A DNA stretch of 64,000 bases from the human T2T-CHM13v2.0 reference genome, Homo sapiens: assembly GCF_009914755.1 (NCBI RefSeq), contig NC_060943.1. One strand, given 5' to 3'. A program made the position numbers and the translations under genes. Under the pieces are notes generated by a model. That model ran no database searches, had not been told where the DNA came from, and saw only the letters and a list, made by a program, of their open reading frames with translations. This document shows positions 60,837-61,078 of this stretch, in pieces (the stretch's first letter is position 1; each line of letters begins with the position of its first letter).

Positions 60837-60838
60837 GT

Positions 60839-61020
60839 AAGTGCCCCAAGGGTCTGAAGGCTGAGGTACTGCGTCTGCAGGAGGTGAAGCTGGGGTAGGC
60901 TGGAGGTGGCTGGGCTCTGGGACAGGAAACTGGGAGGTGGGCGGGGTTAACCTCGGGGCCCCTGGGGTGTGAGGCTGGGGAGATGCGTGGGGCTAACCAC
61001 AGGGTCCTGTAGTGTGAGGC
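60839..61020 (+). repeat. Dispersed copy of the exon 59776-59904 3' end, its donor and the adjacent intron
   Basis: 39/45 nt identical to 59860-59904, followed by collinear intron and minisatellite sequence. Confidence 0.93.
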
Positions 61021-61078
61021 AAGGCACCCTCCTCTGACCATCCTGTCCTTTCATCCCCACGCCTTCCTGTCTCCCTAG

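What the first reader, a model, noticed from the sequence alone, without database searches (positions are those of the whole stretch)
60837..61078. Intron largely built from a copy of an upstream exon end and donor, and the copy supplies part of the live 5' splice site
Seen: 60839-60883 (aagtgccccaagggtctgaaggctgaggtactgcgtctgcaggag, [15 protein letters not shown]) matches the last 45 nt of exon 59776-59904 ([15 protein letters not shown]) at 39/45 with no gaps. It is followed by a copied donor (gag|gtgaag versus gag|gtgagg) and a collinear copy of that intron to about 61020, including about two units of the 45-bp minisatellite. The copy starts at position +3 of the intron. The donor of the 89-nt exon is AA|GT-AAGT, where AAGT is the copied Lys codon plus a C-to-T change at a CpG, giving perfect GTAAGT behind a weak exon end. 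About 182 of 242 intron nt are copy; only the branch point and pyrimidine tract (61021-61078) are not. Use of the copied donor at 60884 would read AGC AAG TAA, a premature stop. Inference: a template switch or ectopic conversion overwrote the 5' part of an old intron (a pure insertion would imply an unusually short ancestral intron of about 60 nt) and left a decoy or poison donor.
Basis: partly seen in the sequence, partly recalled or inferred. Interest (0 to 1): 0.8.

Follow-up and report, generated by a model that had tools for sequence, protein, structure and literature searches.

The report
Exon-end copy inside a MYH14 intron
Three quarters of a short MYH14 intron is an old copy of the end of the previous-but-one exon plus the start of its intron, most likely a harmless relic of a small local duplication and not a working splicing switch.

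Summary
Window 60839-61020 (182 of the 242 intron nt) is a same-strand, collinear copy of 59860-60030. That source is the last 45 nt of exon 59776-59904, its donor, and the intron start with the first two 45-bp minisatellite units. The two align over 170 columns with 22 mismatches (87.1%) and score 192, against 24.3±3.0 for 500 shuffles. The whole genome holds only this copy and its source. Reading on from the 89-nt exon gives AGC AAG TAA.

The same intron is 83 nt in the chr22 paralogue, so insertion into a short intron is plausible. The remaining 58 nt show no homology that gene conversion would need. AAG(T) at +3 to +6 is what an ancestral donor would carry anyway; the chr17 paralogue has CAA|GTGAGT. 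So "the copy supplies the live donor" cannot be shown from this sequence. The copied donor differs from its source by +5 G>A, a classic disabling change. No tool here could test whether it is used.

Best reading: an old (tens of millions of years), one-step templated insertion, now a neutral relic rich in G-runs. It is a new member of a known kind, of modest interest.

The parts
59776..59904 (+). Source exon (129 nt) of MYH14; its last 45 nt (59860-59904, [15 protein letters not shown]) are the template of the copy
   Evidence: Hub annotation; the whole exon aligns with the chr22 and chr16 paralogues over 43 of 43 aa at 58% and 53%
59905..60030 (+). Source intron start: donor gtgagg, 32 nt, then minisatellite units 1 and 2, which are the part that was copied
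   Evidence: Alignment blocks; units listed
59937..60132 (+). 45-bp minisatellite, 4.4 units in the source; 59982-60026 and 60027-60071 are identical
   Evidence: TRF: period 45, 4.4 copies, 92% matches; units printed
60748..60836 (+). 89-nt exon that ends in phase 2 (..AGC AA|)
   Evidence: Hub annotation; translation
60834..60842 (+). Live donor CAA|GTAAGT; TAA at 60838-60840 is in frame with the exon
   Evidence: 8 of 9 matches to the consensus; U1 duplex -6.7 kcal/mol, rank 25 of 29 annotated donors; stop shown
60839..60883 (+). Copy of the exon tail: 39 of 45 identical, 3 differences at first or second codon positions and 3 at third positions
60881..60889 (+). Copied donor GAG|GTGAAG; differs from the source GAG|GTGAGG by +5 G>A at 60888
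   Evidence: 5 of 9 consensus matches and -7.0 kcal/mol, against 6 of 9 and -10.2 for the source
60884..61020 (+). Copy of the intron start with two minisatellite units (60926-61020); holds a 10-nt local extra piece at 60898-60907
   Evidence: 125 aligned columns, 16 mismatches; TRF period 46, 2.0 copies; 11 G-runs
61021..61078 (+). Part that is not copy: branch-point-like CTGAC (A at 61037, 41 nt from the 3' splice site) and TTCAT (A at 61053, 25 nt), a pyrimidine tract (82% in the last 38 nt) and the AG
61079..61202 (+). 124-nt exon downstream
   Evidence: Hub annotation; paralogue exons found

Best explanation
An old, single-step, DNA-level duplication. About 170 nt lying 979 bp upstream were copied in the same orientation into the 5' part of what was then a short intron. 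The copied piece was the last 45 nt of the 129-nt exon, its donor, and the first ~125 nt of its intron with two minisatellite units. It landed just behind the donor core and ahead of the branch point and pyrimidine tract, with loss of 0 to ~25 nt of old intron. A templated insertion by replication template switching is the likeliest route. The insert is tolerated because it leaves the donor core and the whole 3' module intact. It is itself mostly bona fide intron-start sequence packed with G-runs, which mark sequence as intron and favour the upstream donor. The copied donor has since lost its +5 G. The copy is most likely a neutral relic today and not a regulated poison donor.

Shown: the duplication, its limits, its direction, its uniqueness in the genome, the in-frame stop, and the paralogue intron lengths.

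Inferred: the one-step mechanism, the age (per-lineage divergence about 0.07, roughly 30-80 My with recalled primate neutral rates of 1-2.2e-9 per site per year), the G-run effect, and neutrality.
For: Duplication. 170 columns, 87.1% identity, score 192 against shuffles 24.3±3.0. Next best real exon-end segment of the window scores 30. Of the 29 exons ±60 nt blasted against the window, this is the only exon-boundary copy; all other non-self hits are 52 nt or shorter. The only genomic matches are the copy itself and the source.

Direction. The source exon tail is coding and homologous in the paralogues.

Age. 22 differences, 19 transitions and 3 transversions, K2P 0.147, the same in the exon-tail part (0.152) and the intron part (0.145).

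Short recipient intron. The paralogue on chr22 has 83 nt at the same site and phase. Human short introns rise from about 65 nt to a peak at 83-85 nt (PMC4463651, abstract and passages).

No recipient homology. The remaining 58 nt score at chance.

One step is favoured (inference). The intermediate of a tandem 979-bp duplication would carry a second 89-nt exon with both splice sites, which shifts the frame.

G-runs. 11 in +7 to +156, or 7.3 per 100 nt, tied third of 28 introns; the source intron is first at 8.7. G triplets often act as cores of intronic enhancers that activate upstream 5' splice sites (PMC4463651 passage citing McCullough and Berget 1997).

Decayed donor. The copied donor carries +5 G>A. 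+5 G>A is a leading class of donor-inactivating mutation (PMC1934990, abstract only).

Annotation. The selected RefSeq transcript listed by the hub uses 60836^61079.
Against: By the crude register-free U1 duplex energy the live donor (-6.7 kcal/mol, rank 25 of 29) is no better than the copied donor (-7.0). Two other GTs inside the copy are better still: 60895 and 60937, both -8.9. So site strength alone does not explain why the live donor wins, and some use of internal donors cannot be excluded.

The copied exon tail sits just upstream of the copied donor, where exonic enhancers would favour that donor (recalled position rule, not tested).

Mismatches are fewer in G-runs than expected (1 of 16, expected 3.8, one-sided P 0.06). 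This is a weak hint of constraint that would argue against pure neutrality.

A pure insertion implies a 60-64 nt ancestor, at or below the 65-nt threshold of PMC4463651.

No other species could be examined, so age and ancestral state rest on the two copies alone.
Confidence: 0.65

Rival explanations
1. The copied donor at 60884 is a live decoy or poison donor, and its use extends the 89-nt exon by 47 nt. It would then read the TAA and send a share of MYH14 transcripts to nonsense-mediated decay, as a regulated or at least selected feature. The copy would also have built the +3 to +6 part of today's donor.
For: The copied donor has a native-like context, with its own exon tail upstream and G-runs downstream. 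Its U1 duplex energy equals that of the live donor (-7.0 against -6.7). The live donor lacks -1 G, as do only 2 of 29 donors. A stop lies in frame and exon junctions lie downstream (hub annotation). There is a weak trend to G-run conservation (P 0.06).
Against: +5 G>A in the copied donor is the kind of change that disables donors. It has only 5 of 9 consensus matches, against 8 of 9 for the live site. The stop belongs to the live donor's own GTAA in phase 2, so it would poison any read-through with or without the copy. The transcript the hub lists uses 60836^61079, not the 60883 junction. AAG(T) at +3 to +6 is expected of an ancestral donor behind CAA|; the chr17 paralogue has CAA|GTGAGT.
Confidence: 0.1
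2. Two steps. A tandem duplication of the 979-bp unit 59860-60838 was followed by a deletion. The deletion removed the rest of the copied intron, the second 89-nt exon and part of the old intron, and left only the first ~180 nt of the second unit.
For: The copy begins exactly one period (979 nt) after the start of the source, as the second unit of a tandem duplication would. This is true of any direct repeat pair.
Against: The intermediate would contain a second 89-nt exon with both splice sites, so a frameshift, and is unlikely to persist (inference). Nothing in 61021-61078 resembles any later part of the unit. It needs two events where one suffices.
Confidence: 0.08
3. Ectopic gene conversion between two introns that already shared sequence overwrote the 5' part of the old intron.
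For: The tract length (~170 nt) and same-strand, nearby donor fit conversion tracts (recalled general knowledge).
Against: There is no flanking homology on either side. Upstream of 60839 the alignment stops at once, and the 58 nt downstream score at chance. The recipient's upstream flank is the 89-nt exon, which is unrelated to the source's upstream exon sequence.
Confidence: 0.04
4. Chance or compositional similarity of two G-rich intron starts.
For: Both regions are GC- and G-run-rich.
Against: z 55 against dinucleotide shuffles. Score 192 against 30 for the best other real exon-end segment. The match includes 45 nt of coding sequence and the order of two distinct minisatellite units.
Confidence: 0.005

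Closest known systems
Exon-derived intronic duplicates within a gene (tandem exon duplication surveys: Letunic, Copley and Bork 2002, recalled; Ivanov and Pervouchine 2022, PMC9013439, passages read)
   Same: An annotated exon has significant nucleotide homology to unannotated intronic DNA of the same gene, on the same strand and about 1 kb away. PMC9013439 reports 4,027 intronic targets of this kind in human genes after filtering.
   Different: Only the last 45 of 129 exon nt were copied, and no acceptor came with them. The copy continues ~125 nt into the intron, so it cannot serve as a mutually exclusive or cassette exon. It is not adjacent to its source; a whole exon lies between them. 'MYH' has 0 occurrences in the main text of PMC9013439; its track data were not seen.
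Cryptic or decoy 5' splice sites and splicing coupled to nonsense-mediated decay (DBASS5 survey, PMC1934990, abstract read)
   Same: A GT with donor-like context lies 47 nt downstream of an authentic donor that is weak on its exon side. Its use would include a premature stop.
   Different: There is no evidence of use. The site carries +5 G>A. The stop comes from the authentic donor itself, not from the copied sequence.
G-triplet intronic splicing enhancers of small GC-rich vertebrate introns (McCullough and Berget 1997, seen only as a citation and a summarising sentence in PMC4463651)
   Same: A 242-nt intron with 67% GC and 11 G-runs within +7 to +156.
   Different: Here the G-runs were imported wholesale from a neighbouring intron by duplication. 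Their function is untested.
Microhomology-mediated templated insertions (FoSTeS/MMBIR-type template switching; recalled)
   Same: A short segment templated from nearby same-strand DNA, with no transposon hallmarks and unique in the genome. Possible 3-nt AAG microhomology at the 5' junction and (G/A)AGGC at the 3' junction.
   Different: This is an ancient fixed event and the pre-insertion sequence is unknown, so microhomology cannot be verified.
Intron gain by internal segmental duplication of an AGGT-containing segment (Rogers model; Hellsten et al. 2011, recalled)
   Same: A duplicated exon end plus donor sits inside a gene.
   Different: The intron is not new. It exists at the same position and phase in three paralogues. 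The duplication lengthened an existing intron.

Membership tests
Intragenic exon-derived intronic duplicate | Significant same-strand nucleotide homology between an annotated exon and intronic DNA of the same gene | tested here: met
   39 of 45 in the exon part; whole block scores 192 against shuffles 24.3±3.0; blastn E 1.3e-27
Intragenic exon-derived intronic duplicate | The target is not a dispersed repeat family | tested here: met
   The whole-genome DNA search gave 3 matches, all at this locus. The tool warns that very common words are skipped. The block does contain a local minisatellite.
Tandemly duplicated (mutually exclusive candidate) exon | Whole exon copied with acceptor and donor | tested here: not met
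   The copy starts 84 nt into the 129-nt exon and no acceptor was copied
Poison or decoy 5' splice site coupled to NMD | Donor-like GT downstream of the authentic donor | tested here: inconclusive
   GAG|GTGAAG: 5 of 9 consensus matches, U1 duplex -7.0 against -6.7 for the live donor, but +5 is A. MaxEnt and SpliceAI were not available.
Poison or decoy 5' splice site coupled to NMD | Its use brings in an in-frame stop upstream of further exon junctions | tested here: met
   AGC AAG TAA; exon 61079-61202 and later exons follow (hub annotation)
Poison or decoy 5' splice site coupled to NMD | Junction reads that rise when NMD is blocked | not testable with these tools
G-triplet intronic enhancers of small introns | Short GC-rich intron with many G3+ runs near the 5' splice site | tested here: met
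   242 nt, 67% GC, 11 runs in 150 nt, tied third of 28 introns
G-triplet intronic enhancers of small introns | Loss of the runs impairs or shifts donor choice | not testable with these tools
   Needs a minigene
Microhomology-mediated templated insertion | Insert templated from nearby DNA in the same orientation | tested here: met
   The source lies 979 bp upstream on the same strand
Microhomology-mediated templated insertion | Microhomology at both junctions | tested here: inconclusive
   AAG at the 5' junction and (G/A)AGGC at the 3' junction are compatible, but the pre-insertion sequence is unknown
Intron gain by segmental duplication | The intron is absent from paralogues or orthologues | tested here: not met
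   GT-AG introns of 83, 765 and 781 nt lie at the same position and phase in the chr22, chr17 and chr16 paralogues

The most novel reading that the evidence does not exclude
The transplanted module (exon tail, donor and G-run array) is not inert. It recruits U1 and hnRNP H/F just downstream of a donor that is weak on its exon side. It would then set how often the 89-nt exon is spliced correctly and how often it is extended into the TAA. That would give MYH14 a primate- or mammal-specific dosage valve that works through nonsense-mediated decay and was born from a single intragenic duplication.
Probability: 0.07. Interest if true: 0.55.

Novelty: new member of a known kind. Interest (0 to 1): 0.3.

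Why it matters
This is a clean natural case of an intron growing about fourfold by taking in a neighbour's exon end, donor and intron start. It shows that such a module can sit 2-6 nt behind a live donor without disturbing the annotated splice.

The copy also freezes an old state of the 45-bp minisatellite: two already distinct units. The source array now has 4.4 units, two of them identical.

There is a practical point. Variants that weaken the 60837 donor of this deafness-associated gene (the disease link is recalled) have ready-made alternative GTs at +48, +59 and +101. All of them lie behind an in-frame stop.

None of this is surprising to a splicing or genome-evolution specialist. Exon-derived intronic copies are catalogued by the thousand.

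Tried and rejected
- RNA structure. The 242-nt intron folds no better than shuffles (-102.1 against -109.2±5.2 kcal/mol, z +1.37, 184 of 200 shuffles at least as stable). A structure that loops out the copy is not supported.
- Inverted repeats. The repeat between the copy and the pyrimidine tract (I2, 22 nt, 73%) is at chance level: 330 of 500 shuffles reach the best copy-reverse-complement score.
- Homology of 61021-61078 to the 3' end of the previous intron, or to anything in 59700-60836 on either strand: none.
- Rfam. There were 4 matches at E≤1 in 59500-61500, all far below their gathering scores (25.2 of 50, 17.8 of 35, 17.6 of 70, 13.2 of 70). Rejected.
- PRDM9-type 13-mer (recalled motif): 0 matches in 59700-61300.
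- Constraint on G-runs. 1 of 16 mismatches fall in 30 of 125 positions, expected 3.8, P 0.06. Not significant.
- A possible third, older copy of the exon end plus donor at 60546-60561 (15 of 16). 29 of 1000 shuffles do as well, so it is not convincing after several looks.
- Literature. 'MYH14' with 'minisatellite' returned 0 papers. 'MYH14, intron, duplication, splice' returned 49 papers. None of the 10 listed deals with this intron, and the top one uses MYH14 as a name for the sarcomeric gene that hosts miR-499. 'Decoy splice site, duplication, intron' returned 6 papers, none on MYH14.
- Dating with other mammals and checking junction reads were not possible. No eukaryotic genome other than the window's own, and no RNA-seq, is on hand.

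Full report
**What is there**

The region was read directly. The intron between the 89-nt exon (60748-60836) and the 124-nt exon (61079-61202) of MYH14 is 242 nt long. It is the second shortest of the 28 introns fully inside the window.

A gapped local alignment of this intron against 59700-60747 places 60839-61020 on 59860-60030 in five collinear blocks of 59, 56, 41, 6 and 8 nt, 170 columns in all. The copy has one 10-nt extra piece (60898-60907), and there are three single-base indels.

Among the 170 aligned columns there are 22 mismatches (87.1% identity). Nineteen are transitions and three are transversions; five lie in a CpG in one of the copies. The Kimura two-parameter distance is 0.147.

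The first 45 columns are the end of exon 59776-59904, with 39 of 45 identical. Next comes the donor, gag|gtgagg in the source and gag|gtgaag in the copy. Then follow 32 nt of intron and the first two units of the 45-bp minisatellite.

The two copied units keep the order of the source. Copy unit 1 shares ACCT with source unit 1, and copy unit 2 shares AACCACAGGGTCC with source unit 2. The array therefore already had at least two distinct units when it was copied.

**Is it more than chance?**

- The alignment scores 192. Five hundred dinucleotide-preserving shuffles of the intron gave mean 24.3, sd 3.0 and maximum 49.
- As a real-sequence control, the intron was aligned to the last 60 exon nt plus the first 400 intron nt of each of the other 28 annotated exons in the window. 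The source scored 192 and the next best 30.
- A blastn of all 29 exons ±60 nt against the window found this as the only exon-boundary copy (E 1.3e-27). The remaining non-self hits are simple repeats or coding matches of 52 nt or less.
- A DNA search of the whole assembly returned three matches, all at this locus: the copy itself and two matches in the source. The tool warns that very common words are skipped.

It is a local, gene-internal duplication and not a dispersed repeat.

**Direction**

The source exon is homologous over its whole length, tail included, to the paralogues on chr22 (58% over 43 aa) and chr16 (53% over 43 aa). I take these, with the chr17 locus, to be MYH9, MYH11 and MYH10. 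That assignment rests on chromosome and protein sequence and is an inference from recall, not on any annotation seen here.

So the coding copy is the original. Three of the six exon-tail differences are at first or second codon positions (CGC>TGC, CTC>CCC, GAG>AAG) and three are at third positions.

**The rest of the intron**

The last 58 nt (61021-61078) carry two branch-point-like motifs, with the A at 41 and 25 nt from the 3' splice site. The last 38 nt are 82% pyrimidine, and the AG follows.

These 58 nt show no similarity above chance to four targets:

| Target | Shuffles (of 500) scoring at least as well |
|---|---|
| 59700-60836, + strand | 466 |
| 59700-60836, reverse complement | 344 |
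| 3' end of the previous intron (60648-60747) | 480 |
| Reverse complement of the copy | 330 |

This matters for the mechanism. Gene conversion needs homology in the recipient, and none is visible. A tandem duplication followed by deletion might have left something from the later part of the unit, and nothing is there.

**How short was the old intron?**

I located the same intron in the three paralogues. The 124-nt exon was found by protein search in the genome, and the 89-nt exon by tblastn in the fetched loci. The boundaries were read off as GT-AG, with the same 89-nt exon length and the same phase.

| Paralogue locus | Intron length | Donor |
|---|---|---|
| chr22 | 83 nt | AGG\|GTGAGC |
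| chr17 | 765 nt | CAA\|GTGAGT |
| chr16 | 781 nt | AAG\|GTAGGA |

Shimada et al. (PMC4463651; abstract and passages read) report that human short introns rise steeply from about 65 nt to a peak at 83-85 nt. They call introns of 65 nt or less 'ultra-short'.

So 60-64 nt would indeed be at or below that threshold. But a family member has an 83-nt intron at exactly this site. An ancestor of 60-85 nt, with loss of 0 to about 25 nt at the event, is therefore unremarkable. The data cannot separate 'pure insertion' from 'insertion with a small replacement'. A long ancestor like those on chr17 and chr16, with a large deletion, is not excluded either.

**Does the copy supply part of the live donor?**

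The ungapped match does begin at intron position +3: AAGTGC in the copy against AAGCGC in the source. But +3 to +5 = AAG is the consensus of donors in general.

The live donor is one of only 2 of 29 annotated donors in the window that lack G at -1, and one of only 2 of 29 with GTAAGT. That is the familiar compensation between the exon and intron sides of a donor (recalled). The chr17 paralogue, which has the same CAA| exon end, has GTGAGT.

An ancestral CAA|GTAAGT, with the junction falling in a 3-nt AAG microhomology or just after the T, needs no later substitution. It also never passes through a weakened GTAAGC donor. The two cannot be told apart without an outgroup that lacks the block.

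**The copied donor and the stop**

Reading from the 89-nt exon into the intron gives AGC AAG TAA. The stop is the TAA of the live donor's own GTAAGT, read in phase 2. Any read-through, or any downstream donor, would meet it whether or not the copy existed.

The copied donor differs from its source only by G>A at +5 (60888). +5 G>A is one of the commonest donor-inactivating changes in disease genes (PMC1934990, abstract only).

| Donor | Matches to CAGGTAAGT (of 9) | U1 duplex energy (kcal/mol) |
|---|---|---|
| Live, 60837 | 8 | -6.7 (rank 25 of 29 annotated donors) |
| Source, 59905 | 6 | -10.2 |
| Copied, 60884 | 5 | -7.0 |
| Other GT in the copy, 60895 | 5 | -8.9 |
| Other GT in the copy, 60937 | 5 | -8.9 |

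By this measure the live donor is no better than the copied one, and two other GTs inside the copy score better. This counts against a simple 'the live site is stronger' account, and I cannot exclude low-level use of internal donors. MaxEntScan, SpliceAI and RNA-seq were not available.

**Why the live donor may still win (inference)**

The copy is mostly genuine intron-start sequence. It has 11 runs of three or more G between +7 and +156 (7.3 per 100 nt), which ties it third of 28 introns. The source intron ranks first at 8.7.

G triplets in small GC-rich introns often act as core sequences of intronic enhancers that activate the upstream 5' splice site. I saw this as a summarising sentence and citation list in PMC4463651, which includes McCullough and Berget 1997.

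Mismatches between source and copy fall in G-runs less often than expected: 1 of 16, with 3.8 expected, one-sided P 0.06. That is a weak trend and not significant.

There is no sign of a special RNA fold (z +1.37) and no match to any Rfam family at its gathering score.

**Mechanism of origin**

A single templated insertion from 979 bp upstream, on the same strand, is the most economical account. A tandem 979-bp duplication followed by deletion requires an intermediate with a second 89-nt exon flanked by both splice sites. That intermediate would shift the frame, so I rate this route low.

The junctions are compatible with short microhomologies: AAG at the 5' side and (G/A)AGGC at the 3' side. 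This cannot be verified without the pre-insertion sequence.

**Age**

K2P is 0.147 between the copies, or about 0.07 per lineage. With recalled primate neutral rates of 1-2.2e-9 per site per year, that gives roughly 30-80 million years. CpG richness would inflate this figure. Later conversion between the copies would deflate it.

The source array has since grown to 4.4 units, and 59982-60026 is identical to 60027-60071.

**Comparison with what is known**

Exon-to-intron homology inside human genes has been surveyed. Ivanov and Pervouchine (PMC9013439, passages read) aligned every exon to its parent gene and obtained 4,027 intronic targets after filtering. 'MYH' does not occur in their main text, and I did not see their track data.

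This case belongs to that class but is a partial copy: the last 45 of 129 nt, with no acceptor, running on into the intron. It fails the test for a candidate mutually exclusive exon.

It is not intron gain, because the intron is shared by three paralogues.

Literature searches for this specific feature found nothing. 'MYH14' with 'minisatellite' gave 0 papers. 'MYH14, intron, duplication, splice' gave 49 papers, and none of the 10 listed is relevant.

**Verdict**

This is a well-preserved example of a known kind of event. A functional decoy role is possible but untested and, in my judgement, unlikely.

Noticed in passing
window 59937-60132: A 45-bp minisatellite with 4.4 units; 59982-60026 and 60027-60071 are identical, which suggests recent expansion and possible length polymorphism. 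Units 2-4 each hold a GC-box-like GGGCGGGG and a G-quadruplex-like run with loops of up to 9 nt. The array lies inside the RefSeq 'enhancer' 59848-60375 listed by the hub.
   Followed up: partly
window 60546-60561: GGCTGCAAGAGGTGAG matches the exon end plus donor at 59894-59909 in 15 of 16 positions, inside the same intron. 29 of 1000 shuffles do as well, so it may be chance or a much older, decayed copy.
   Followed up: partly
window 60898-60907: The copy carries a 10-nt local tandem extra piece (GGCTGGAGGT next to GGCTGGGCTC) that the source lacks. TRF reports period 10 at 60889-60914.
   Followed up: partly
L006 (chr22), L005 (chr17), L007 (chr16): The 89-nt and 124-nt exon pair and the phase-2 intron between them are kept in all three non-muscle/smooth-muscle myosin II paralogues. 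Intron lengths are 83, 765 and 781 nt.
   Followed up: yes
window 60285-60339: A (GTGGGA)n and (GA)16 microsatellite block lies in the source intron.
   Followed up: no
window 54210 and 47657-47745: Donor AGC|GTGAGC at 54210 is the only other annotated donor without -1 G, and it has the weakest U1 duplex energy (-5.4) of the 29. The shortest intron of the window (47657-47745, 89 nt) has no G-run in the 43 nt scored.
   Followed up: no
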